64,000 nucleotides of DNA from Bacillota bacterium (GTDB lineage Bacteria; Bacillota; Clostridia; Christensenellales; SZUA-584). Shown here one piece after another: positions 8,824 through 64,000 of the stretch. The first letter of the stretch is position 1, and each line of letters opens with the position of its first letter. The position numbers were made by a program, and so were the translations under genes. The stretch is taken from assembly GCA_023406895.1 (NCBI GenBank), contig JAEXTV010000023.1, forward strand, positions 67,833-131,832, written 5' to 3'. Under the pieces are notes generated by a model. It did not search any database. It worked only from the letters and a program-made list of their open reading frames with translations, and had not been told where the DNA came from.

Positions 8824-9723
8824 CTAAAACGTTATTGCTAATTGATCCAATGCACCGAACAGCTCTCTGATTTGCAGGCTGTCATCCGTGCAGAGGAATG
8901 AAAACACCTCACCTCTTATTGAGATGTTCATGGACTCATTTCTGCTGCCTTGCGACTCTTTTGTTCTTCTGACTTTTTCAATGGACGCGAACGGCAGAAA
9001 CAGCGTGGAGTGGGTCAGGTCGCCTTGTTTTCTGCTTCTTGCGCGCTTATCCCTTTGAAGCACAATCAACTCCGAATCGTTGGTTAAAAAAGCTATGCTC
9101 GTGATCAGCTTTTTCATTTTCATCAGCGCTTTGATTCTCTCTCGCAAATCTTCATAATTTGGCACAAATTTCGCGGGCGGCTGATAAGCCACGAGCCGTA
9201 TTTTGTTGTCCAGCGCTTTGTATTGATCGATGATGGCCGAGTAAAGATGCTCAACCGTATTAAGATCATGGCTGATCGTCTCAAGATTCAGTATCTTTTC
9301 TGTGGTTCTGTACTTGCCTCTGATGATATTGATGAGCCTCATGATGATCGGTTCCGAAACCGAGTTATATTCGATCGTTACGGTCTCATCATCCAGATAC
9401 AGCAGCGCCTGCCCTTTGAGCATCGAAATGGTGTTTTTTATCGCCATCACGCTCTCATACGGCACGCGCTTTTCTTCCACATTATCATCAATGCGCTTTA
9501 AGATATAAAGATATGACGCGAACGCGCCGATCACGTAATCATACAGATTCATCTCGGGCGTCGCGTCCGCTCTGTCGATCTTCCTCGGTATCTTGATCAG
9601 CATAAGCGGTGTTTCTTGTTCCCTGTAATAGTTCACAAACAGCGGCGGTATGGTGTATTCATCGTTAATCTCAAAAATCCATGGCCCGAAAGCATCGTAT
9701 TCCTTCGTGCTTTTTGCGATCAT
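8824..9723 (-). CDS. hypothetical protein (no family recognised)
   Basis: 299-aa ORF preceded by AAGGGGG. It is clean and non-overlapping, in a locally lower-GC stretch. N-terminus: MIAKSTKEYDAFGPWIFEINDEY. Confidence 0.6.
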   Translation of the reverse strand: MIAKSTKEYDAFGPWIFEINDEYTIPPLFVNYYREQETPLMLIKIPRKIDRADATPEMNLYDYVIGAFASYLYILKRIDDNVEEKRVPYESVMAIKNTISMLKGQALLYLDDETVTIEYNSVSEPIIMRLINIIRGKYRTTEKILNLETISHDLNTVEHLYSAIIDQYKALDNKIRLVAYQPPAKFVPNYEDLRERIKALMKMKKLITSIAFLTNDSELIVLQRDKRARSRKQGDLTHSTLFLPFASIEKVRRTKESQGSRNESMNISIRGEVFSFLCTDDSLQIRELFGALDQLAITF

Positions 9724-10178
9724 CTCAAGATACCCCCTTATTGTGTTAATATAATCATATAAAGGGAGTTAAATGGTGTCAATCGCACTATTTTATGCTT
9801 ATTGCTTGGCGCGGTTATCAAAATTTTCCGAAGAACCTGTGCGCCTATCACTTTTTTATCATCTTGAATCTGTCTGTCATAAAAAAAGCCAGCAAAAACA
9901 GGAAAGCCGCAAGATTTTGGGCTTCTAAATATAGATTTCAATGCATAGTGAGGTGCAAAGTGATATACGCATACTGTCAACGTTATATGATCCGTGATGA
10001 GTATCTCTGATCGCGGTCCCTCCACCGCGGCGAAGTCACCAAAAGATGAACGGAGAAGAAAAATCGGCTCAAAGCCGCTCGCTTGCCAGCCCATTTGTCA
10101 CGCCATCCCTAGGGCAGTCCTCTGAGGGATAGGTGATTAGCTATATTAAAGACCGAAATCGAGAGGGCTTTACTTCGG

Positions 10179-16350: not shown

Positions 16351-16536
16351 AGCACGCTACCTCTTAAGCAAACTTTACAAATCTGTTTCAATTATAACAT
16401 AAATATTAAACACGCAACACCACAGACACTGAATGTTTACAATTCAGTCATTCTATCGAAAACAGAATATCAGAAAATACCCTGATAGGGAAGGGCCTCT
16501 TGATGATAAAAAAACGGTGGTAAATGGCACTTGCTT

Positions 16537-16785
16537 CTAAACACCAAGCCATTTTAGCAGTCTTTGATAATCATCATTCGCTTCTGAGAAGTCAGGATGC
16601 TCTTTAACAAACCCCTCAATTTTAATTCTATCTTGTGCGGTAAATTCATCCCAGTTTTCTTTGTTAATAAGTTCTTTACCATACGTTTCTTTATAAATTT
16701 GCTTTGCGCGGATCAATGCAGAACTATATGTTTGGAACGAAATGCAGCCCACTTCGCGATACCATTTATAAAACGAAGAGAACTT
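16537..16785 (-). pseudogene. 3' remainder of the two-repeat lipoprotein gene, cut off by an in-frame TAG
   Basis: It is in the same frame as 16786-17676. Reading through the TAG at 16786-16788 gives ...TQYNDGIY*KFSSFYKWYREVGCISFQTY...DDYQRLLKWLGV. This aligns with repeat 1: ...NKYDQVTYKKFHQFYDWYCNCGETAY...HSYQRLLEWL. Confidence 0.55.
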
Positions 16786-17646
16786 CTAATATATTCCGTC
16801 GTTATATTGAGTATAAAGTCCTTCAATCTCTTTCAAGGTTGGCGGTTTTGCTTTAGGTTCATTAGTAAGCTCATATACGTGCAGTTTGATGATCAGTTCG
16901 TCTTCCAGCAATTGAACGTCTTCATCCAGTGTGACGATGTTGTTACCAGAGTAATTTTTCGCGAACTGCGGATAAGCAAACAAACCCATTTCCTTAAGAA
17001 TCTCGACATACTCAGCTTGATACTCTTTCTTAAACTGAGTTGATTCATCCGGCTTTGCACAGGCAGTCAGCCATTCTAATAACCTCTGATACGAATGGCT
17101 TGTATCTGAATAATCGGGGTTTTTTATCACATACAACTCAAAATCGATTAAGTCATCAACCCAATAATCGCTCAATGAATCTATATCTTTATAATCAGTC
17201 CCATATTTATCTTTATAATCCATAAGTGCTTTAGAGATCCCATCCAAATAATCATCATAGGCTGTTTCGCCACAGTTACAATACCAATCATAGAATTGGT
17301 GAAACTTTTTGTAAGTCACCTGATCATATTTGTTATAAAGACCTTCAACCTCTTCAGCAGTAGGAGTATTCCTTATACCGGTATACAGTTCATACACATG
17401 CAGGTATTTTTCTAGTTTTTTTTCGTATATCACGACTCCTTCCGCAACTTCAACTATTTCAGCATTATCAAATTTGCTTTCATAATCGGGATGTACATAA
17501 AAACCCATGTGCATCATTTTCTCTATAAATTCAGCCTGAAACTCTTCCTGCGTTTCAGCAGGTTGTGGCGCGCAGGCAGACAAAGGCACTGCCGTCGCCA
17601 ACACGGTTATACAAGTCAATATGATAGTGGTGAGTCGTTTCGTCAT
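16786..17646 (-). CDS. lipoprotein with internal tandem repeat, truncated by an amber codon
   Basis: Signal plus lipobox: MTKRLTTIILTCITVLATAVPLSAC. AT-rich gene. Alternative start at 17658. Confidence 0.7.
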   Translation of the reverse strand: MTKRLTTIILTCITVLATAVPLSACAPQPAETQEEFQAEFIEKMMHMGFYVHPDYESKFDNAEIVEVAEGVVIYEKKLEKYLHVYELYTGIRNTPTAEEVEGLYNKYDQVTYKKFHQFYDWYCNCGETAYDDYLDGISKALMDYKDKYGTDYKDIDSLSDYWVDDLIDFELYVIKNPDYSDTSHSYQRLLEWLTACAKPDESTQFKKEYQAEYVEILKEMGLFAYPQFAKNYSGNNIVTLDEDVQLLEDELIIKLHVYELTNEPKAKPPTLKEIEGLYTQYNDGIY

Positions 17647-17654
17647 AGTCACCT

Positions 17655-18965
17655 TCATTTTTGATAGTTGAAACACTCGGGATAGTCTTTCTCCAACCCT
17701 ACCATGTCTTCATAGGTTAAGTCACTAAGCCGATTCCTTTTTTCTTCAAAGGATAGGTTTACTCCCTTCAATTCTATATCTTTGTTTATTGCGGCCCGTA
17801 ATGCATCTTCGTAATTATCTGATGGGCTCAGGCCACCTCCATCACCATACCATGCTACATAACTATCTATCTCAATAATATCGAACGTTCCGTTTATAAA
17901 CGTTTCTTCTATATCCTCTGCTGTAAGTCCTAACCCGTCGCTACTCACCCCACCGTGCTTAATCGCATATGCACGTAGTGCAATATTTAAATCGTACTTG
18001 TCAAGGCTTACCACGTTAATACTGTAATTTCCGTCAGACAGCATGTTAATGGATGCTCCCAACAGCAACGCATAAGATACTACGCCTTCATTTTTAAGCC
18101 GATTCACCGCATTGTCTAATTGATCCAAGTTACGGTCTTTTGCCGCATTTGACACCGTGTTTGTAATTAAAGCATCTAAGTTTTTTCTAAACTGATATAT
18201 ATCTGCCTTTTCTTCTGTTTGTATGTTTCCATCGCTATCCAAATATCCAACTGATAGTATTCGGTCCCACTTCGTATAATTGCTTTCAGGATTCTTTTCG
18301 ATACTAAACACAATGACTTTTAATCCGCCTGTGGACTCGAATGTTTGCCATTGCGAAATCTGATTTAGAAGAGAATAACTATAAATACATTTGTAAATTC
18401 TGTTGTCTTGATTAGTTATCATATCATATGGCACGTTCGCGTTTTTCAACAGATTCTTATATCTTGCCGCCATCCCACCGAGAACAGGACTTACATTCCA
18501 CTTAAACGTCGAACCAAATAGACCCTCTTGTTCAGTTTTTATGTAAGTATTTTTAAGAAAAACCTCCTTGTCCTCATCAGACATATTAGTAAATGATATA
18601 ATCAACGCATTGTATATTGAATTATCAATAGTTGCAGCATCGCTCTGCATCACTTCATTGATGTAATCAAAGTTATATTTGTAGATGAGATTGCCCTCTT
18701 CGTCTGTCTGCCCCGTGTCTTTTCGCATTTTATCCAAGCAGTCAACGAACTCTTGCGAATCAGCAGCGGGGATCAGGTTCTCTATGCCCAGATCAGCGGG
18801 TGATTCACCGCCTTTGTATTCAAGTATCACCGCATCCTTAACCTTTTGCGCAAGTGTTGGTTCTGCGGGTTGTGGCGCGCAGGCAGACAAAGGCATTGCC
18901 GCAACTAAAATGGTTATACAGGTTAATATGATTGCAAAAATTCGTCTCGTCATAATTTCCTTCAC
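17655..18965 (-). CDS. lipoprotein, function unknown
   Basis: MKEIMTRRIFAIILTCITILVAAMPLSACAPQPAE is a lipobox. The signal peptide is almost identical to that of the downstream gene. AT-rich, 436 aa. Confidence 0.7.
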   Translation of the reverse strand: MKEIMTRRIFAIILTCITILVAAMPLSACAPQPAEPTLAQKVKDAVILEYKGGESPADLGIENLIPAADSQEFVDCLDKMRKDTGQTDEEGNLIYKYNFDYINEVMQSDAATIDNSIYNALIISFTNMSDEDKEVFLKNTYIKTEQEGLFGSTFKWNVSPVLGGMAARYKNLLKNANVPYDMITNQDNRIYKCIYSYSLLNQISQWQTFESTGGLKVIVFSIEKNPESNYTKWDRILSVGYLDSDGNIQTEEKADIYQFRKNLDALITNTVSNAAKDRNLDQLDNAVNRLKNEGVVSYALLLGASINMLSDGNYSINVVSLDKYDLNIALRAYAIKHGGVSSDGLGLTAEDIEETFINGTFDIIEIDSYVAWYGDGGGLSPSDNYEDALRAAINKDIELKGVNLSFEEKRNRLSDLTYEDMVGLEKDYPECFNYQK

Positions 18966-19282
18966 TTTTCATATTCAAAGCACTGCATCACTCTTCAGCC
19001 TTTTCTTAAGGTGCTTGATGCAGTACTCATAACTTCGATGGCCTTCTGCTTTCTCGGATTTTCGTGTTTATTTAGGTTATATCCACAAGATAACCTCTCA
19101 TTTGCATTATATCCATATAACTATACAACACACCTTATATTGTTACAATTATAAATGTCTTGTATTGTTAAATCAATCCATATATTTTTTTCGTCATATC
19201 AGCCTTTTCGGCCAATATAGACAAAACGGCACGCAAAATGGTATATTGATGTCGCGCTTTTTATGGCGCAGCGGAGGAAAAA

Positions 19283-57479: not shown

Positions 57480-58718
57480 TTAAACGCGATGATCTGTTTC
57501 ATCTTCCTTTTTCGGTGCCGCGTCATTGCGCTTTTCCCACCGGGCCGCGCGGCGTTTGCTGCGCGACTTTTTCGATGTATACAACACCGCAAGCACAATC
57601 ACCGCCGCAGCCAGCACGGCACATGCCCCGCACAGCGCGTAAAAGAGAGTTTGATCAATCGCGAATCCGCCGATGTCAGCCGGTGCCGAAACGGGTGCCG
57701 ATGATGGCTCCGCGGAAGGCTGTGCAGTCGGCTGCGCCGGTGCCGATAAAGCCGCTCCCTTGTACCGCTGCAGCGATTCATCCTCGGTGCTGAACAGATA
57801 GAACCCCTTTTCGCCCGCCGCGTTGCGCACATAAACGAGGTAAACGGTGCCGTCGGAGCCCTTTTGTGTCCACGCGGGCATCTGCTTCTCTTTCCAGGTC
57901 AGCGTGGTTTCTTCAAACCCTTCGGGCACTGCGATGCCCTCCTCCGGCTTTACGATCGTATAGCTTGCGGATACCGACAGCAGCGTGTAATACGGGAAAA
58001 GCGTATTCTTTTCCTCGTTGTAGATATAATAGCCCGCGTTCTCCCCCGTCTCTTCCGAGAGATACAGCAGCGTTAAATCCTCGCTGTCTGGAATGGCTGC
58101 GCCGCCCACGAATTCGCCTTTGTACGTGACCTGCTTATCCACATACCCGGACGGCAGCGTCAGGCTGCTGAGTGAGCGCCAGATGTACATCTGAGCTGCG
58201 GCGCCTTCCACGTTTTCGGCGGCGACACCCGTTTGCGCGAGGTTGACCGGCGGCACGCTCGGCTCGGTACCGGGCGCGGCCGCATCCGCCGCGGCCACCG
58301 TGATGCTGACGCCCGCCTCCGCCGTTTCAAGCACCTGCTCGTCGTAGCTGAGCACGCTGTCCATCGACACGTTCACAACCGCTTCGCCCTGGCCGATGGC
58401 CGCAAATTTGATGACCGCCGTCAGTGACGACGCACCGCCCTCCTGCGCCGCCACCATGTTGATCGATCCGTCCGACGCGCCGCCGTTGCTGCTGACATAC
58501 GTCAGCAGAGCCGGGTCGTATGTGAAAGAGCCGTCCGCGACGGCGATATGCTCGGCGGACACAACGACGGTGACTGTCACCGTATCACCCACCTTCACCG
58601 AGGTGGCATCCGCTTTCACGGAGATATCGGTTGCCAGGGCGACAACCGGAAAGATAAGCATCAGTATCAGCGCCGGTATCAGCGCGGTGATTCTTTTTAT
58701 TGTCTGTTTTGTTTTCAT
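57480..58718 (-). CDS. membrane-anchored cohesin-domain protein
   Basis: Signal peptide, then a cohesin-like module (VKADATSVKVGDTVTVTVVVSAEHIAVADGSFTYDPALLTYVSS...). Then a middle domain, a Pro/Ala linker, a C-terminal TM segment LFYALCGACAVLAAAVIVLAVLY and a basic tail. Its ATG overlaps the upstream TGA (ATGA at 58715-58718). Confidence 0.7.
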   Translation of the reverse strand: MKTKQTIKRITALIPALILMLIFPVVALATDISVKADATSVKVGDTVTVTVVVSAEHIAVADGSFTYDPALLTYVSSNGGASDGSINMVAAQEGGASSLTAVIKFAAIGQGEAVVNVSMDSVLSYDEQVLETAEAGVSITVAAADAAAPGTEPSVPPVNLAQTGVAAENVEGAAAQMYIWRSLSSLTLPSGYVDKQVTYKGEFVGGAAIPDSEDLTLLYLSEETGENAGYYIYNEEKNTLFPYYTLLSVSASYTIVKPEEGIAVPEGFEETTLTWKEKQMPAWTQKGSDGTVYLVYVRNAAGEKGFYLFSTEDESLQRYKGAALSAPAQPTAQPSAEPSSAPVSAPADIGGFAIDQTLFYALCGACAVLAAAVIVLAVLYTSKKSRSKRRAARWEKRNDAAPKKEDETDHRV

Positions 58719-60475
58719 CAGACACCCCCTGTTTGTTCGATTGAAAGCGCGCCGTGAATGTGTTTGAGCAGGCGCAGCACATCTAGGCTGTCCGCCGTGC
58801 CGTCGTGGTTCACATCCGCCGCTTCAAGATAGATGCCCGCCAGCTTGCCTGTGTTCAGCAGGTGCTGCCGCAGCGCATCGAGGTCGCTCTGGCCGATACT
58901 GCCGTCGCCGTTTACATCGCCGTAAAGCACCACCGGAAGATCGAAATACGAGGTGCCGTCGCCGTACACCGTGCGGACAAAATCGCCCGTCGCGACATCG
59001 CCCTCCGTTTGTTCCGCGCCGGACGACGAAATCACGCTGATGCTGCCGCCTTCCGACGAGAGCCTTGAAAGCAGCTCGCTTGGCGTGGTGCCCGGCTTGA
59101 TGCCGCAGATGCCCGACTCCGCCACGGCGTATTTGTCGCTCGAGAGCTTAGGGGCTGTGGCGTAGCTGCCGATGGTGCACAGCAGCGTATCCGCGTAATA
59201 AAAGCTCAGTATATCGGCGTGGCTTTGGCCGTCGGTGGCGCGCTGCTGAGCGCCGCGCTGACTGAGGCCGATGCCGTGCCCGTAGCGGCGGTTGGTGAGA
59301 AACCAGCCGTCGTAGTCTGTGCCGTTTTTATCGGTGAACACGCCCGGCTCGGCCCCGCGCATGCGAAGCGAGTACTTGGTCGTGTTGAAAATGCCGATCG
59401 GGTGCTCGTCCGTCTTCACGAGGTCATTGAGCGACAGCGTGACCACGAGCTGGCCGGTTTTGCCGTCCGCGCGCGTGACCATCAGCGTGACGTCCGCTTT
59501 GGTATACATGCGGCTCGGCGGGTTGAACTTGGCAGTGTGGGCTTTGATGCGCACGGTGGAAACGAGCGTGACCGGTTCGCCCGCGGCCGCGTCCGCGCCC
59601 TGCTGCAGCATGGTCAGCACCATCGGGTCCATCAGCGGCAGTGTCTGCTTATGGAATTCGGTGGGAACGAAGCTTTTTTCCACGAGGCTGTTTGGGTTTT
59701 GTACGTCATAGATGTCGTCGCGCTGCACGTAATACGGCAAGTCGTTGGCCCACACGTTGCCTGTGAGCTCGGTCTGCCCGCCGTTGCTGGCGGAGTAATA
59801 CGCCTGTATGATATCGCCGTTGTAGGTGAGTATCTGCCCCGCCGTGTCGTCCACGGCGGCGATGGCGCGCGTGTAGACGCTCGCATAGCCGTGGTACACC
59901 TGATCCTCCGAGGTATCGAGGATCTCATAGGCGCGGCTGCGGTATTTGGAACAGTTGGCCACCGCGTAGCCGCGCGCGCAGACGGCCTGCGCCTTGAGTG
60001 ACTCGGACGGGAAGGTGTTGCTCATTTCGTGCGGCACCACGCCGTAAAGATAGTGCTCGATGGGCAGCGTGTTGATGGCGCGGATGCTGCCTTCGAAGAC
60101 GTCGAAGCCCATGTTGCCAAGGTAGGTGCAGGTGCCGTATTTATCGTTCTTTAAGCGGATATAGGCGGAGGTGCCGTTGTAATCGCCGCTCATCAGCGTG
60201 ATGGACGAGGCGGTGAAGGTTTTACCGTTTGAGGTGAGGACGGGTCGGCTGCCCGTCATGGTGATGGTCATTTCGTCGCTGGACAGCTCAAAGGAAGGGT
60301 CTTCCTTGAGGGTATAGCTGCCGATGGCCTCGAACTCCACGGTGGTGCCGCTGACGGAAAGAAGAACGCGGATGTCTGAGTGGAAGGCGGCGGCATGGGC
60401 GCAGGGCACGGCGCTGAACACAAGAATCAGCGCGAGCAGCAGAGAGATGAGAAATGGCTTTTTGTTATGTTTCAT
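58718..60475 (-). CDS. SpoIID/LytB domain protein with a C-terminal type-I dockerin
   Basis: Signal peptide. SpoIID blocks: YLYGVVPHEMSNTFPSESLKAQAVCARGYA, EDQVYHGY, YYSASNGGQTE, GHGIGLSQRGAQ. Dockerin duplicated EF-hand-like segments: DVNGDGSIGQSD and DVNHDGTADSLD. Confidence 0.85.
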   Translation of the reverse strand: MKHNKKPFLISLLLALILVFSAVPCAHAAAFHSDIRVLLSVSGTTVEFEAIGSYTLKEDPSFELSSDEMTITMTGSRPVLTSNGKTFTASSITLMSGDYNGTSAYIRLKNDKYGTCTYLGNMGFDVFEGSIRAINTLPIEHYLYGVVPHEMSNTFPSESLKAQAVCARGYAVANCSKYRSRAYEILDTSEDQVYHGYASVYTRAIAAVDDTAGQILTYNGDIIQAYYSASNGGQTELTGNVWANDLPYYVQRDDIYDVQNPNSLVEKSFVPTEFHKQTLPLMDPMVLTMLQQGADAAAGEPVTLVSTVRIKAHTAKFNPPSRMYTKADVTLMVTRADGKTGQLVVTLSLNDLVKTDEHPIGIFNTTKYSLRMRGAEPGVFTDKNGTDYDGWFLTNRRYGHGIGLSQRGAQQRATDGQSHADILSFYYADTLLCTIGSYATAPKLSSDKYAVAESGICGIKPGTTPSELLSRLSSEGGSISVISSSGAEQTEGDVATGDFVRTVYGDGTSYFDLPVVLYGDVNGDGSIGQSDLDALRQHLLNTGKLAGIYLEAADVNHDGTADSLDVLRLLKHIHGALSIEQTGGV

Positions 60476-60820
60476 AGTGTTTCACCATAAACCGACAGTT
60501 TATACTACGATTCGTCATAACATAATCATACAGTTTGTCCATGGGTTAGTCAAGGCAACGGGGAGGTTGGGGGCAACTTTTACAATTGGGCGGATGAGAG
60601 CAATTTTTTTTGAGGCAATAACTAGCGCTGACTACGGAACTATGGGCGCTGTACCTTTTTATGCTAAATATGAAGGAATTTGCGGAAAAAGGGCGAATAA
60701 TGAAAGCAGTATGGGTTACAATCAGTCTACTGTGTTGGCCTAGAAATTAAACATCTCACTACCTTTGTTATGTAATTTAGAACAGAAAGAAAACAGAATC
60801 CTATAATAAGGAGAGAGTAA

Positions 60821-63800
60821 ATGTCAAAAATTAAAGTTGCCTTTGCACAGATTGATTTCAAACCTGCCTTAATATATAACCAAATTGACTTATTAGTTGA
60901 ACCTAGTGGTGATGAGACCACGACAATATCGCAATTAACTTTTCCAGGGAGTACTGAGTTAAAAAATAATTTAAAAGAAGGATATTTTAATTGGATAAAA
61001 TTAAAAATACTTGCAATTGTTAAGAAAGCAATTGATATTGGCATTAACATTTTAGTTTTCCCCGAGTATTCTATTCCAGCAGAAATATTAAATGAATTGG
61101 CCGTTAAACTTAACGATACCAAATTAATCATAATTGCAGGCACACATATAGTAAAAAATACACTTAGTAATCCGCCGAAAAACTATCCGGATACTAAAAG
61201 CATAATAGGTTGTGCCATGTGTCCAATAATAACTTATAAAGGCGTCAGTGGGTATACATTAAAAACTCATAGAGCAGCACAGGAGATAAACAGTATTTGT
61301 ACTCCGAAACATCCTATACCAAACATTTTTGATATGGGAGATTTCGATATGCAGATAAAAATATGCATTGACGCTATAACGGTAGATCAAGATTTAAAAT
61401 TCACAGACAGAAAAGGGCTAATTGTCATTCCATCATATTCGCAAAATGTAGAGCCTTTTAAAGCCTTGGCAATATTGGCCAAGTATAATGAAATACCTGT
61501 GATTTATGCCAACTGCGCTAGTGCTGGCGGATCAATTATCTCTGGTGCCTTCTCCAAGTACGGAAATCATTGGTTTACTGAAGGTACAACTACGAAGCCT
61601 GTGATTAAGGATATAGAATGCATGGTATCTGTTAATCTAAATTTAGATAATACTGCACAGTTAGTTGGAACAGTAAACACTGAAGAAATTATTAATGTCG
61701 ATAGAGTTATTAATATTTTTTATAACATGGACGAAAAGCATAAAACTATTATCCAATTAATTGATGAGTATTTAGCTAAATTCCCTAATATGGATATACT
61801 TAATATACCGGATATGGGCAATTCATTATTAGGATTAAAACTTCATTTTTTACATATTCAAAAAGATAATGGTTTAATTAGTAAAGCTAGCGTTGAGGAA
61901 ACTTTAGATTATATAAAAATTAACTCTATTTCTTTTAGCCAATTTGTTGTTGACCAAAGCAATTCAGCTTTCAATTATTTGTCATCAAATATTGCTTATT
62001 CAAAAACAGATAATGAATTTTTAAAAAACTTAGGAGCAATAATAAAAAAGATTTCTCCGCAAGATTCACAAGACGAAGGTATATTCGAAGATGACAACTT
62101 GTTTTATGGTCGAGATAATGATGTCGCCAGTTTAAGTGATTTTTTTAACAATGAAAACAATGTTTATCTTATTTATGGACTGCGAGGCTTAGGAAAAACC
62201 AAATTAATAAAAAACATAAGTACCAAAGTTCTTCCCTCACCATCGCCTTGGATTCTTAAAAAAATGGAAATTAGCAAGGGTATTGGTTATGATTATCTTT
62301 TAGATCAATTTATGTACATGCTTAATTTGCCTGATATTGAGCGAAAAGATAAATCGTTAGAAACTATAGTTTGTGAAATCTTTGATATACTGGAGAATCA
62401 AGTACCCACCTCGATAATAATTGAAGATATACATCACTGTACTCAATTTAATGGTGAGTTCTTTGATACCAAAATAAGAGAATTTATGATTTGGTTAATC
62501 AGAAATGTACAAAAATCAAAAAAAGTCAAATTAATAATGACAAGTAATCGCAGAATAGGTGATTTTGATCAACTTATATATAACCCTATAGATATTTCAC
62601 GTTTAAAAGATGGGGATGTTAGATCTATAATAAATTATTGTTATCGTAAAATTAACAATACGACAAAAGTAATAGAAATTAATGATAATATTATAAATAT
62701 AATTTATGGCAATCCACTTGCTGCAATATTGGTTTCTCAATTAATTGACAATGATAAATTGCAAGAGTTTGGAACAAAAAGTGACATCTTTTTAAGATAT
62801 AAAGAACAATTAATTAAAAATTTACTTGGAGAAATAGAATTATCTGACGAAGAAAAACTTGTAATGAAAATATTGTCCGTTTCTAAAACACCCGTAGAGA
62901 TCGATTTCATAGAAAAAAACTATTCTTATCTTATCCCAACAATCGATGCATTAGTTAATAGACTGTTAATAGAAAAAGACGAAACATATATCAAGATGCA
63001 TCCATTATTTCAAGAATACTACTATGATTCTTTAACTTTAAAAGATCGTTCAGATCATCATAAGAAGTTAGCCACTTACTATGAAAAAATATATCTAAAA
63101 CAAAGAGCAAAAAAAGTCAATCCATTATTACTTTCAAATATTGTTTTCCATTATGCTGGTAGTCTTAAACTTGATAAGGTACATGAATATAAGGCAAAAT
63201 ATATTGATGAGCTAGGGCCAATAGCAGATCGCTTATATAAAGATAAGAATTATCAAGATGCAGTTAATTATTACCGATTAATTTTCGATACTATTGGAAA
63301 ACAGCGAACGGATGTATTAATTAAGATGGCAAAATGTTATGTCTGTTGTAGCGAAATTGATAACGCCGAAAAGTTTTTTAAATTAGCTATTATGCAAAAT
63401 CCACGTGGAGCTTATTTATGGGCTCAATTCGCAATAGCTTTAGCTTGTAAGAATAATTATTTATCGAAAGCAAAAGAATATTCAGATGAAGCGGAAAGAA
63501 TATATAGAAAATACGGAAATACTTTGCGTTGGGAACTTGCAAAAATAAAATTCGCTCAAGCACGTGCTTGGCGTTTTGACAACCCAGAAAAAGCAGCCAT
63601 TTTATTCGATGAAGCTGTTACATTGGATCCAACAAATTGCTATTATCTTTGCATGTATGCAACTTATTTATTTCATATGTCAGACAGTCCCAAGGCTAAA
63701 TCAATATTTGATAAAGCTAACGATATTAACCCAGATGACCCACATGTTATTAGATTAAAATTAAAATTCGGAGTGGACGAATGTGATGAAAAAGAATTAA

Positions 63801-63853
63801 TTAATGAAGAATATGATGAGGAAACCGATGATGACGTCAATTTTGCTGGTTAA
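60821..63853 (+). CDS. CN-hydrolase (nitrilase superfamily) - NB-ARC/STAND NTPase - TPR protein; candidate NLR/Avs-like defence protein
   Basis: 1010 aa after AAGGAGAGAG. Nitrilase triad motifs: LVFPE82, LK148THR, KIC182ID. P-loop GLRGLGK459T, Walker B SIIIED536, GNPLA630-634, KMHP725-728. C-terminal TPR-like repeats and an acidic tail. The gene is strongly AT-rich relative to its flanks. Confidence 0.8.
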   Translation: MSKIKVAFAQIDFKPALIYNQIDLLVEPSGDETTTISQLTFPGSTELKNNLKEGYFNWIKLKILAIVKKAIDIGINILVFPEYSIPAEILNELAVKLNDTKLIIIAGTHIVKNTLSNPPKNYPDTKSIIGCAMCPIITYKGVSGYTLKTHRAAQEINSICTPKHPIPNIFDMGDFDMQIKICIDAITVDQDLKFTDRKGLIVIPSYSQNVEPFKALAILAKYNEIPVIYANCASAGGSIISGAFSKYGNHWFTEGTTTKPVIKDIECMVSVNLNLDNTAQLVGTVNTEEIINVDRVINIFYNMDEKHKTIIQLIDEYLAKFPNMDILNIPDMGNSLLGLKLHFLHIQKDNGLISKASVEETLDYIKINSISFSQFVVDQSNSAFNYLSSNIAYSKTDNEFLKNLGAIIKKISPQDSQDEGIFEDDNLFYGRDNDVASLSDFFNNENNVYLIYGLRGLGKTKLIKNISTKVLPSPSPWILKKMEISKGIGYDYLLDQFMYMLNLPDIERKDKSLETIVCEIFDILENQVPTSIIIEDIHHCTQFNGEFFDTKIREFMIWLIRNVQKSKKVKLIMTSNRRIGDFDQLIYNPIDISRLKDGDVRSIINYCYRKINNTTKVIEINDNIINIIYGNPLAAILVSQLIDNDKLQEFGTKSDIFLRYKEQLIKNLLGEIELSDEEKLVMKILSVSKTPVEIDFIEKNYSYLIPTIDALVNRLLIEKDETYIKMHPLFQEYYYDSLTLKDRSDHHKKLATYYEKIYLKQRAKKVNPLLLSNIVFHYAGSLKLDKVHEYKAKYIDELGPIADRLYKDKNYQDAVNYYRLIFDTIGKQRTDVLIKMAKCYVCCSEIDNAEKFFKLAIMQNPRGAYLWAQFAIALACKNNYLSKAKEYSDEAERIYRKYGNTLRWELAKIKFAQARAWRFDNPEKAAILFDEAVTLDPTNCYYLCMYATYLFHMSDSPKAKSIFDKANDINPDDPHVIRLKLKFGVDECDEKELINEEYDEETDDDVNFAG

Positions 63854-64000
63854 AACTATATGGGGGTTCTTCGACCCGATTTAAGGGAATTATCTATATA
63901 ATCACCCATACTCATAAAAATAGCGCCCCTTTGACGCTGTTCCTTTTCCAAGGCATTCTCCTCCCACCCCTGTATTTCAACCTCCCCCCGCATCCCGCCA

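What the first reader, a model, noticed from the sequence alone, without database searches (positions are those of the whole stretch)
60480..64000. AT-rich single-gene island encoding a nitrilase(CN-hydrolase)-NB-ARC/STAND-TPR protein: candidate NLR/Avs-like defence gene with an unusual effector
ORF 60821-63853 (1010 aa) stands alone in a block that is visibly AT-rich.
- Composition: a hand count of the 60-nt line starting at 62581 gives 16/60 G+C. The line at 59221, in the adjacent SpoIID gene, gives 45/60.
- aa 1 to about 290: these carry the three spaced motifs of the nitrilase-superfamily Glu-Lys-Cys triad (INILVFPE82YS, YTLK148THRAAQE, MQIKIC182IDA).
- aa about 425-735: this region looks like an NB-ARC-type STAND NTPase. 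It has FYGRDNDVASL, Walker A GLRGLGK459T, Walker B SIIIED536, a GxP motif GNPLA at 630-634, and KMHP at the position of the MHD motif.
- aa about 800-975: TPR-like helical repeats (YQDAVNYYRLIF, AEKFFKLAIMQNP, AAILFDEAVTLDP, AKSIFDKANDINP), followed by an acidic tail.
- Interpretation: the order effector-STAND-TPR is the architecture of Avs and bacterial NLR-like antiphage sensors. Nitrilase domains are known as effectors fused to defence reverse transcriptases (DRT type 1 / UG1-like). I am not aware of a described nitrilase-STAND fusion.
- Limits: I saw no integrase, tRNA or flanking direct repeat. The window ends 147 nt after the stop, so downstream partner genes cannot be excluded.
Basis: partly seen in the sequence, partly recalled or inferred. 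Interest (0 to 1): 0.85.

Follow-up and report, generated by a model that had tools for sequence, protein, structure and literature searches.

The report
Nitrilase-STAND-TPR candidate antiphage sensor gene
A recently acquired, AT-rich single gene encodes an NLR-like sensor (STAND ATPase plus TPR repeats) fused to a nitrilase-type enzyme, an immune "warhead" so far known only from reverse-transcriptase defence systems; it sits at a spot where the closest related genome carries the Gabija defence system, but its function is still untested.

Summary
ORF 60821-63853 (1010 aa) fills a ~3.2-kb block of 30% GC (GC3 0.23, against 0.81 in the adjacent SpoIID gene).

What the protein is:
- aa 1-300: nitrilase-superfamily fold, with the Glu82-Lys148-Glu155-Cys182 tetrad intact in all 69 same-architecture family representatives (E155 in 66).
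- aa 425-790: STAND NTPase (Pfam nSTAND6 above cutoff). The model resembles a STAND-TPR protein, Apaf-1, CED-4, SAMD9 and plant NLRs.
- aa 791-985: TPR repeats.

By sequence, the nearest known relatives of the nitrilase domain are the effector domains of the defence reverse transcriptases DRT1 and UG5/DRT11.

A longer contig shows no partner gene. The ten related genomes examined lack the gene. The closest one carries a complete Gabija system in an equally AT-rich block at the same site. Homologs are always solitary and lie in an ICE, beside integrases or IS elements, or next to R-M systems and a SIR2-STAND gene.

It is not a member of Avs1-5, bNACHT or DRT. No description of this fusion turned up in the searchable literature.

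Best reading: a single-gene NLR-like defence protein in which oligomerisation activates a nitrilase effector. This is a new variant of a known kind. Function and substrate are untested.

The parts
60476..60705 (.). Conserved host sequence upstream of SpoIID. Its outer end is the left border of the variable block.
   Evidence: blastn of L001 against L012 gives 85% identity up to L001 9885 (window 60705) and then stops.
60654..60702 (-). Single copy of a 49-nt junction sequence at the left edge of the island. The closest relative has two copies, which bracket a small cassette next to Gabija.
   Evidence: L012 copies at 9121-9169 and 9769-9817 are 94% identical. The 29-nt core occurs once in L001 and twice in L012. 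Its role, possibly att-like, is inferred only.
60706..60820 (+). AT-rich leader of the island, with a Shine-Dalgarno-like AAGGAGAG at 60808-60815, 5 nt before the ATG.
   Evidence: Read directly from the sequence. Promoter scans are not above chance in this AT-rich DNA.
60821..63853 (+). Nitrilase-STAND-TPR gene, 1010 aa, including the stop codon.
60821..61720 (+). aa 1-300: nitrilase-superfamily (CN-hydrolase) domain with the tetrad E82, K148, E155, C182. Predicted effector.
   Evidence: All 50 listed Foldseek PDB hits are nitrilase-superfamily enzymes (6ypa E 1.3e-9). Sequence matches: DRT1 9yfd E 1.1e-5 and PADLOC RTasNitrilase E 1.5e-8. Tetrad conserved 69/69, 69/69, 66/69, 69/69.
61721..62092 (+). 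aa 301-424: helical linker, the most divergent segment of the protein.
   Evidence: AF2 secondary structure. Mean pairwise identity is 0.25, against 0.40-0.49 for the other domains. No family match.
62093..63190 (+). aa 425-790: STAND NTPase (nSTAND6) with Walker A GLRGLGK459T, Walker B IIIED536, GxP G630/P632 and an MHD-like His727, plus helical and winged-helix subdomains.
   Evidence: Pfam PF25201 scores 35.1 bits, above the 27.7 cutoff. Structural matches are 6mfv, Apaf-1, CED-4, SAMD9 and plant NLRs. Motif conservation: K459 68/69, G630 68/69, H727 54/69.
63191..63775 (+). aa 791-985: TPR repeat domain of about 10 helices. Predicted sensor.
   Evidence: Pfam TPR_19 scores 26.5, above the cutoff of 25. 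PDB sequence hits are TPR proteins such as HOP, CTPR and IFIT. AF2 helices 795-982 have pLDDT around 90.
63776..63850 (+). aa 986-1010: acidic tail, predicted disordered.
   Evidence: 13 D/E in the last 35 residues. pLDDT is below 50 for 987-1010.
63922..63938 (.). GC-rich hairpin at the right edge of the island, where GC climbs back to host level. Possible terminator.
   Evidence: The terminator-like scan reports it at L001 13102-13118, but the count is not above chance. GC rises from 0.33 to 0.53 between L001 12900 and 13300.

Best explanation
This is a horizontally acquired single-gene immune sensor of the STAND/NLR type.

Proposed mechanism (every step is inferred by analogy; none is shown for this protein):
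1. At rest the protein is a closed, nucleotide-bound monomer and its N-terminal nitrilase domain is inactive.
2. The C-terminal TPR domain binds an invader-derived ligand, most likely a phage protein.
3. The nSTAND6 NTPase then exchanges nucleotide and oligomerises.
4. Oligomerisation brings the nitrilase domains together into the dimer or tetramer that enzymes of this superfamily need for activity.
5. The Glu-Lys-Glu-Cys site hydrolyses a carbon-nitrogen bond in an essential metabolite or protein. The substrate is unknown. Growth stops and the infection aborts.

Shown here: the three-domain anatomy; the intact catalytic and nucleotide-binding motifs; foreign composition; solitary organisation; mobile and defence-linked contexts; and kinship of the nitrilase domain with the DRT1 and UG5 effector nitrilases.
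For: **Anatomy**
-.

**Selection on catalysis**
- Across 69 same-architecture representatives: E82 69/69, K148 69/69, C182 69/69, E155 66/69, Walker A Lys 68/69.

**Accessory and foreign**
- GC 0.30 against 0.51 for the rest of the window; GC3 0.23 against 0.81 for SpoIID.
- The gene is AT-rich (GC 0.27-0.36) in 9 of 11 homolog loci, whatever the flanking GC.
- It is absent from all 10 related genomes found through SpoIID.

**Hotspot**
- In the closest relative (SpoIID 89% identical) the same position holds a 4-kb block of GC 0.32.
- That block encodes GajA (E 4e-207) and GajB (E 2e-123).

**Homolog contexts (always a solitary gene)**
- Between the T4SS coupling protein and the MobL relaxase of an ICE-like element in Desulfocucumis palustris.
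- 15 nt after a type I R-M operon and before a Schlafen/AlbA_2 gene.
- Beside tyrosine integrases, IS elements or a D5 primase.
- Two genes from a SIR2-nSTAND5-TPR gene.
- Near PADLOC candidate PDC-S27 and a type II R-M pair.

**Effector precedent**
- DRT1's nitrilase is its effector. It needs assembly into a tetramer, and the monomeric form is neither protective nor toxic (PMC13275509).
- A Cys-to-Ala mutation in the nitrilase abolishes DRT11 defence, and protection is abortive-infection-like (PMC13436386).

**Architectural precedent**
- TIR-, SIR2- and nuclease-STAND-TPR defence genes (PMC9122126) and Avs5, a SIR2-nSTAND3-TPR protein (PMC12931631).
Against: - There is no experiment on any family member.
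- No PADLOC Avs or NLR model matches.
- No relative was found in IMG/VR, INPHARED or PLSDB.
- The TPR domain is not more divergent than the enzyme domain (0.49 against 0.47 identity), so there is no sign of a fast-diversifying sensor.
- The STAND-TPR module was found only with this nitrilase, so effector swapping is not shown on that side.
- The same nitrilase domain also occurs fused to generic signalling modules such as a receiver domain, HATPase_c and GAF. These are not specific to immunity.
- Some contexts are uninformative (Pelotomaculum schinkii, L010).
- The window protein itself does not reach Pfam CN_hydrolase.
Confidence: 0.65

Rival explanations
1. It is a signalling or metabolic enzyme, not an immune protein. 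In this reading a STAND-TPR switch, of the kind seen in MalT/AfsR-type regulators, senses a small molecule or host protein. It then turns on an amidase or nitrilase that degrades or produces a metabolite for the cell's own physiology.
For: - The same N-terminal nitrilase domain is fused elsewhere to a response-regulator receiver, HATPase_c, GAF and IF-2B-like modules.
- The TPR domain is as conserved as the enzyme domain.
- The P. schinkii copy sits among ordinary genes.
- One source names a homolog 'predicted amidohydrolase'.
Against: - Distribution is patchy, composition is strongly foreign, and the gene is absent from sister genomes.
- Gabija occupies the same site in the closest relative.
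- Homologs recur beside ICE, integrase, IS and R-M genes.
- No transporter or pathway gene is conserved next to it.
- By sequence, its nearest relatives are defence-RT nitrilases rather than metabolic nitrilases.
Confidence: 0.15
2. It is a conflict or addiction gene serving mobile elements rather than an antiphage gene. It could be an ICE- or plasmid-borne exclusion or stabilisation module that kills cells which lose the element or receive a competitor.
For: - In D. palustris it lies inside the conjugation module, between the coupling protein and the relaxase.
- Other copies abut integrases, IS91/IS110/IS21 elements, ParA/ParB and a D5 primase.
Against: - No antitoxin-like partner gene is conserved.
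- The window copy is a bare single gene with no mobile-element genes around it.
- Defence genes are commonly carried as cargo by such elements, so this context does not separate the two readings.
Confidence: 0.12
3. The nitrilase domain is a catalytically dead scaffold, or the ORF is a decaying remnant of a foreign gene with no current function.
For: - The window protein gives no Pfam CN_hydrolase hit.
- The gene has not adapted to the host's composition.
Against: - The ORF is intact over 1010 codons in DNA where about 8.5% of random codons would be stops.
- The catalytic tetrad and the Walker A motif are essentially invariant across 69 diverged representatives.
- The AF2 models are confident.
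Confidence: 0.03

Closest known systems
Avs5 / SIR2-STAND-TPR and related TIR- or nuclease-STAND-TPR single-gene defence proteins (AVAST family; PMC12931631, PMC9122126)
   Same: - Same three-part order: N-terminal enzymatic effector, central STAND NTPase, C-terminal TPR-type repeats.
- Single-gene organisation, about 1,000 aa, carried in islands and mobile elements.
- The model resembles SAMD9, as reported for Avs5.
- A SIR2-nSTAND5-TPR gene lies two genes from one homolog.
   Different: - The effector is a nitrilase-superfamily hydrolase, not SIR2, TIR or a nuclease.
- The NTPase is nSTAND6, not nSTAND3 or nSTAND5.
- No PADLOC Avs model matches.
- There is no detectable sequence homology to the neighbouring SIR2-STAND gene beyond TPR-level similarity (E 0.011).
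- The trigger is unknown.
Class 3 UG/Abi defence reverse transcriptases with a nitrilase effector: DRT1 (PDB 9yfd; PMC13275509) and UG5/DRT11 (PMC13436386)
   Same: - The nitrilase domain is the closest sequence relative: 9yfd E 1.1e-5, and PADLOC RTasNitrilase, RT_UG5-nitrilase and RT_UG29 at E down to 7e-10.
- Same catalytic residues.
- In DRT1 the nitrilase is an effector gated by oligomerisation. This is the property a STAND switch would exploit.
   Different: - No reverse-transcriptase domain is present.
- The nitrilase is N-terminal rather than C-terminal.
- Activation would come from NTP-driven STAND assembly rather than protein-primed DNA synthesis and filament formation.
- The C-terminal lid segment that completes the DRT1 active site has no evident counterpart here.
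NB-ARC/AP-ATPase STAND proteins (Apaf-1, CED-4, plant NLRs) and the archaeal STAND-TPR protein 6mfv
   Same: - Overall fold of the NTPase, helical and winged-helix modules.
- Walker A and B motifs, GxP, and a conserved His at the MHD position.
   Different: - Pfam NB-ARC is below its cutoff (21.5 against 23.5).
- The motif is hHP rather than MHD.
- The protein is bacterial, carries a TPR sensor and has an enzymatic effector.
Housekeeping nitrilase-superfamily enzymes (amidases, Nit2/Nit3, beta-ureidopropionase, the glutaminase domain of NAD synthetase)
   Same: - The alpha-beta-beta-alpha fold and the Glu-Lys-Cys triad with a second Glu.
   Different: - Only 11-17% identity and TM-scores of 0.5-0.68.
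- Not detectable by sequence against the PDB apart from DRT1.
- Fused to a sensor ATPase.

Membership tests
Nitrilase superfamily (CN-hydrolase) | Alpha-beta-beta-alpha sandwich fold | tested here: met
   The AF2 model of aa 1-300 has pLDDT 78 and pTM 0.84. Foldseek against the PDB gives 154 hits at E<=1e-3, and all 50 listed are nitrilase-superfamily enzymes.
Nitrilase superfamily (CN-hydrolase) | Catalytic Glu-Lys-Cys triad with a second Glu, in the usual motif contexts (strand-PE, strand-K, strand-C-x-D/E) | tested here: met
   The residues are E82 (VFPE), K148 (YTLK), E155 and C182 (ICIDA). They are conserved 69/69, 69/69, 66/69 and 69/69. ICIDA aligns with DRT1's ICYDA.
Nitrilase superfamily (CN-hydrolase) | Pfam PF00795 match above the gathering score | tested here: not met
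   The window protein gives no hit. Only 7 of 16 family members give weak hits, the best at E 0.0017. This is a divergent branch, recognised through structure and through the DRT-nitrilase profiles.
Nitrilase superfamily (CN-hydrolase) | Hydrolysis of a C-N bond | not testable with these tools
   This needs biochemistry. The substrate is unknown even for DRT1 (PMC13275509).
STAND NTPase, Pfam nSTAND6 (PF25201) | Profile match above the gathering score | tested here: met
   35.1 bits against a cutoff of 27.7, over aa 429-562.
STAND NTPase, Pfam nSTAND6 (PF25201) | Walker A and B motifs, plus helical and winged-helix modules after the P-loop domain | tested here: met
   GxxGxGK459[TS] holds in 68/69. 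The Walker B acidic pair is D/E in 62/69. G630xP632 holds in 68/69 and 65/69. His727 holds in 54/69. The fold matches 6mfv, Apaf-1 and CED-4.
NB-ARC (Pfam PF00931) | Profile match above the gathering score | tested here: not met
   21.5 bits against a cutoff of 23.5. The module is NB-ARC-like in structure only.
Avs / AVAST types 1-5 | Tripartite architecture: effector, STAND NTPase, TPR-like sensor | tested here: met
Avs / AVAST types 1-5 | Sequence membership in a described Avs family | tested here: not met
   PADLOC-DB v2.0 returns no Avs model at E<=1 and none among the family-wide top hits.
Avs / AVAST types 1-5 | Recognition of a phage protein and a phage-defence phenotype | not testable with these tools
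   This needs experiments.
Class 3 UG/Abi defence reverse transcriptases (DRT1, UG5/DRT11) | Reverse-transcriptase domain | tested here: not met
   No RT family appears in the Pfam scan. The PADLOC matches are confined to the nitrilase portions of the RT models.
Class 3 UG/Abi defence reverse transcriptases (DRT1, UG5/DRT11) | Homologous nitrilase effector domain | tested here: met
   9yfd E 1.1e-5. RTasNitrilase matches 12 of 18 members and RT_UG5-nitrilase 8 of 18.
bNACHT (bacterial NLR-related, NACHT clade) | NACHT domain | tested here: not met
   There is no NACHT hit in Pfam at E<=1.
Defence-island gene (operational definition) | Recurrent proximity to known defence systems, and variable occupancy of a genomic hotspot | tested here: inconclusive
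   - Positive cases: Gabija at the same site in L012; type I R-M plus a Schlafen gene; SIR2-STAND; type II R-M; PDC-S27.
- Only about 12 contexts were examined, and they were not compared with a background rate.

The most novel reading that the evidence does not exclude
Nitrilase-type hydrolases may be a broad, so far unrecognised class of immune effector 'warheads', not a peculiarity of class 3 defence reverse transcriptases.
- One clade of N-terminal nitrilase domains has 128 representative clusters at E<=1e-30 and 1,444 at E<=1e-3.
- It is plugged into many sensor or switch chassis: nSTAND6-TPR (at least 69 clusters), other NB-ARC-like/TPR proteins, pentapeptide+WD40 proteins of about 1,900-2,000 aa, uncharacterised proteins of about 2,200-2,400 aa, HerA/TrwB-like ATPases, and two-component-type modules.
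- All of these would share one still-unknown toxic chemistry with DRT1 and DRT11, for example deamidation of an essential amide-bearing metabolite such as NAD+.
- A STAND-gated version would be a simple, switchable system for finding that substrate.
Probability: 0.35. Interest if true: 0.8.

Novelty: new variant of a known kind. Interest (0 to 1): 0.62.

Why it matters
- **An open question in the field.** Nitrilase domains have only just been shown to act as effectors in defence. DRT1's structure and DRT11's phenotype were both published in 2026, and the DRT1 authors ask outright what the nitrilase's substrate is.
- **An independent example.** This family couples the same kind of nitrilase to a quite different and well-understood activation device, an NLR-like STAND switch.
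- **Support for the mechanism.** That coupling supports the idea that oligomerisation gates the enzyme.
- **A simpler test system.** A single protein with no DNA synthesis involved could be used to trap the substrate and identify the toxic chemistry.
- **Wider reach.** It adds a hydrolase class to the list of effectors used by bacterial NLR-like sensors. It also flags a family of hundreds of unannotated proteins ("hypothetical", "archaeal ATPase", "TPR protein") and a defence hotspot beside SpoIID in uncultured Clostridia.

Tried and rejected
- **Avs, bNACHT or DRT membership:** rejected. There are no Avs or NACHT profile matches and no RT domain.
- **Effector swapping on the STAND-TPR chassis:** a search with aa 425-1010 alone returned only family members or fragments. 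The neighbouring SIR2-STAND gene in L050 is not detectably homologous.
- **Carriage by phages or plasmids:**
  - There was no relative in IMG/VR, but only one degenerate peptide pattern was usable, so this is a weak negative.
  - tblastn found no match in INPHARED phages or PLSDB plasmids.
- **Classical island marks:** no tRNA, no Rfam match worth noting (one sub-threshold snoRNA hit inside the coding sequence), and no direct or inverted repeats flanking the island in L001.
- **Expression signals:** promoter and terminator scans are not above shuffled expectation in this AT-rich DNA, so I name no promoter.
- **The 49-nt junction repeat:** its 29-nt core has no exact match in the JGI metagenome collection, so I could not show that it is a general attachment site.
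- **Exact right-hand insertion point:** it cannot be defined by comparison, because synteny beyond the island differs between genomes. L001 has MFS/TetR there and L012 has RidA/DAO.
- **Literature:** nine full-text searches (nitrilase with STAND, NLR, Avs, NACHT, conflict systems, TPR and CN_hydrolase; nSTAND6 on its own; and nSTAND or TRADD-N) found no description of this fusion. Subscription-only papers and their supplementary tables, such as the Avs effector lists in Gao et al. 2022, could not be checked.

Full report
**1.

The window contains one long ORF at 60821..63853 on the + strand, 1010 aa with an ATG start. It is preceded by AAGGAGAG, 5 nt upstream of the ATG. GC is 0.26-0.35 across the gene and 0.56-0.63 in the SpoIID and cohesin genes to the left.

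GC3 is 0.23 for this gene and 0.81 for SpoIID. In DNA of this composition about 8.5% of random codons are stops, so a 1010-codon open frame has a chance probability of about 1e-39.

The identical protein lies on a 204-kb metagenomic contig (L001). That contig shows what the window cuts off: the next genes are a convergent MFS transporter and a TetR regulator at host GC. The low-GC block is therefore about 3.2 kb (window ~60706-63920) and holds one gene with no partner.

**2. What the protein is**

*N-terminal domain.*
- Pfam gives no CN_hydrolase hit for the window protein. PADLOC's RT-associated nitrilase model does match aa 76-245 (E 1.5e-8).
- A profile of the N-terminal 300 residues from 16 family members finds one significant solved structure by sequence. 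This is the nitrilase domain of defence-associated reverse transcriptase 1 (9yfd, E 1.1e-5). The alignment places the family's ICIDA on DRT1's ICYDA, which holds catalytic C1116.
- An AlphaFold2 model of the domain (pLDDT 78, pTM 0.84) retrieves only nitrilase-superfamily enzymes among the 50 PDB matches listed. These include amidases, Nit2/Nit3, beta-ureidopropionase and the glutaminase domain of NAD synthetase, at E down to 1e-9 and TM 0.5-0.68.

*Central region.*
- It passes Pfam's cutoff for nSTAND6 (35.1 against 27.7 bits) and just misses NB-ARC (21.5 against 23.5).
- The full-length model (pLDDT 84) is closest to the STAND-TPR protein 6mfv (E 3e-13). After that come Apaf-1, SAMD9, ZAR1, NRC resistosomes and CED-4.

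*C-terminal region.*
- It is a TPR solenoid (TPR_19 above cutoff), followed by a disordered acidic tail.

**3. The family**

The word-indexed search found only 18 relatives among 5.8 billion sequences. An exhaustive HMM search with the N-terminal profile found far more: 1,444 representative clusters at E<=1e-3 and 128 at E<=1e-30.

Of the best 150 representatives plus the earlier hits, 69 share the full nitrilase-STAND-TPR architecture at about 1,000-1,060 aa. Conservation across those 69 is as follows:

| Residue | Role | Conserved |
|---|---|---|
| E82 | catalytic Glu | 69/69 |
| K148 | catalytic Lys | 69/69 |
| C182 | catalytic Cys | 69/69 |
| E155 | second Glu | 66/69 |
| K459 | Walker A Lys | 68/69 |
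| G630 | GxP Gly | 68/69 |
| H727 | His at the MHD position | 54/69 |

Both enzymatic activities are therefore under purifying selection.

The same nitrilase domain also heads other proteins. These include pentapeptide+WD40 proteins of about 1,900-2,000 aa, uncharacterised proteins of about 2,200-2,400 aa, HerA/TrwB-like ATPases, and a different NB-ARC-like/TPR protein. There are also fusions to a receiver domain, HATPase_c, GAF and IF-2B-like modules.

The reverse does not hold. The STAND-TPR part of this family was found only with the nitrilase.

Sources annotate members as "hypothetical protein", "Archaeal ATPase", "TPR repeat protein" or "predicted amidohydrolase".

**4. Genomic behaviour**

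The host is an uncultured member of the Bacillota. Its relatives in GTDB are labelled Bacillota, Christensenellaceae or Oscillospiraceae MAGs.

None of the ten related genomes found through SpoIID carries the gene.

In the closest one (L012, SpoIID 89% identical), nucleotide homology with the window genome runs from the cohesin and SpoIID genes out to window position ~60705 and then stops. Beyond that point L012 has its own 4-kb block of GC 0.32. That block encodes full-length GajA (E 4e-207) and GajB (E 2e-123), which is a Gabija system, plus a 157-aa ORF. Two unrelated AT-rich cargoes therefore occupy the same site in sister genomes, and one of them is a validated defence system.

A 49-nt sequence lies at the junction. 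It occurs once in the window (60654-60702) and twice in L012, where the copies bracket the 157-aa cassette. I could not show that it is a recombination site.

Elsewhere the gene is always solitary. It is AT-rich (GC 0.27-0.36) in 9 of 11 homolog loci, whatever the flanking GC. The contexts examined are:

| Locus | Context |
|---|---|
| L002 (Desulfocucumis palustris) | Inside an ICE-like conjugation module, between the coupling protein and the MobL relaxase |
| L003 / L004 | 15 nt after a type I R-M operon, before a Schlafen/AlbA_2 gene |
| L006, L007, L008, L053, L054 | Next to tyrosine integrases, KilA-N, a D5 primase, IS91/IS110/IS21 elements, SMEK_N and a type II R-M pair |
| L050 | Two genes from a SIR2-nSTAND5-TPR gene |
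| L005 | Near PADLOC candidate PDC-S27 |
| L049 (Pelotomaculum schinkii), L010 | Uninformative |

No relative was found in IMG/VR, INPHARED or PLSDB.

**5. Mechanism**

Established knowledge supplies two pieces.
- STAND/NLR proteins are nucleotide-gated oligomerisation switches. A repeat domain senses a ligand and an N-terminal domain is activated by induced proximity. Bacterial TIR-, SIR2- and nuclease-STAND-TPR proteins defend against phage in this way (PMC9122126; PMC12931631).
- Nitrilase-superfamily enzymes need homo-oligomeric assembly for activity.
  - In DRT1 the nitrilase is the effector, the monomeric form is neither protective nor toxic, and the substrate is unknown (PMC13275509).
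  - In DRT11 the nitrilase Cys is required for defence, and protection is abortive-infection-like (PMC13436386).

Putting these together gives the most likely mechanism. The TPR domain recognises an invader molecule. The nSTAND6 NTPase then oligomerises and brings the nitrilase domains together into an active assembly. That assembly hydrolyses a C-N bond in an essential molecule, which arrests the cell.

The anatomy, the motif conservation, the kinship with DRT nitrilases and the genomic behaviour are shown here. The trigger, the oligomerisation, the chemistry and the phenotype are inferred.

Some points weigh against the immune reading:
- The TPR domain is not more divergent than the rest of the protein. 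Identity is 0.49, against 0.47 for the nitrilase domain. The linker (aa 301-424) is the most divergent segment, at 0.25.
- There are no Avs-model matches.
- The nitrilase domain is also fused to generic signalling modules.

**6. Comparison with known systems and novelty**

The protein works like an Avs- or NLR-type sensor, but it fails the sequence-membership tests for Avs1-5, NB-ARC and NACHT. It shares its effector with class 3 defence reverse transcriptases but has no RT domain.

Nine full-text searches, plus two papers on STAND conflict systems that I searched for the word, produced no mention of a nitrilase fused to a STAND/NLR protein. The DRT1 paper states that nitrilases are not common in antiphage defence. 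Paywalled supplementary tables could not be checked.

I therefore rate this as a new variant of a known kind: a known chassis with a newly recognised effector class.

**7. Verdict**

I put the probability of a defence function at about 0.65.

Interest is moderately high at 0.62. New effector-STAND combinations are expected in principle. This one bears directly on an open question, namely what defence nitrilases do, and it points to a sizeable unannotated family and a defence hotspot.

Noticed in passing
L012 5954-10000 (MAG Bacillota OH_HFB_467), corresponding to the site at window ~60705: The closest related genome carries a complete Gabija system (GajA, GajB) in an AT-rich block of GC 0.32. 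It sits at exactly the position next to SpoIID where the window has the nitrilase-STAND gene. This makes the site a variable defence hotspot.
   Followed up: yes
window 60654-60702; L012 9121-9169 and 9769-9817: A 49-nt sequence lies at the island junction. It occurs once in the window and twice in L012 (94% identical), where the copies bracket a 600-bp cassette holding a 157-aa ORF with no family match. It may be an attachment or cassette-junction site. Its 29-nt core has no match in JGI metagenomes.
   Followed up: partly
window 16400-19250: A second low-GC block (0.35-0.42, against about 0.52-0.56 in its flanks) lies between an FtsW/RodA/SpoVE gene and dnaX. It holds two overlapping minus-strand ORFs (16786-17676, 296 aa; 17655-18965, 436 aa) with no Pfam or PADLOC match. 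It may be another piece of foreign cargo.
   Followed up: partly
proteins P0112, P0117, P0121 (about 2,300 aa); P0122, P0125 (about 1,900-2,000 aa); P0096, P0019 (about 1,280 aa); P0053, P0103, P0107, P0143: The same clade of N-terminal nitrilase domain, with the tetrad intact in nearly all, is fused to quite different C-terminal parts. These include pentapeptide+WD40 repeats, HerA/TrwB-like ATPases, a receiver domain, HATPase_c, an IF-2B-like domain, GAF, and very large proteins with almost no recognisable domains.
   Followed up: partly
L050 12313-15423: A SIR2_2-nSTAND5-TPR gene (1036 aa, Avs5-like architecture) lies two genes from a nitrilase-STAND-TPR homolog. It has the same layout and size but no detectable sequence homology beyond TPR-level similarity.
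   Followed up: yes
window 57480-60475 (minus strand): The SpoIID homolog carries a C-terminal dockerin domain, and the gene next to it has a faint cohesin match. This pairing is conserved in the related genomes and hints at a cohesin-dockerin-anchored sporulation or cell-wall lytic enzyme.
   Followed up: no
family alignment A1, aa 301-424 of the window protein (window 61721-62092): The helical linker between the nitrilase and the NTPase is by far the most divergent segment, at 25% mean identity against 40-49% elsewhere. The TPR 'sensor' is as conserved as the enzyme domain. If any part is diversifying, it is the linker.
   Followed up: partly
L003 884-9978: In one homolog the nitrilase-STAND gene starts 15 nt after the stop of hsdS, on the same strand, in a type I R-M operon. 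This suggests co-transcription with the R-M system.
   Followed up: no
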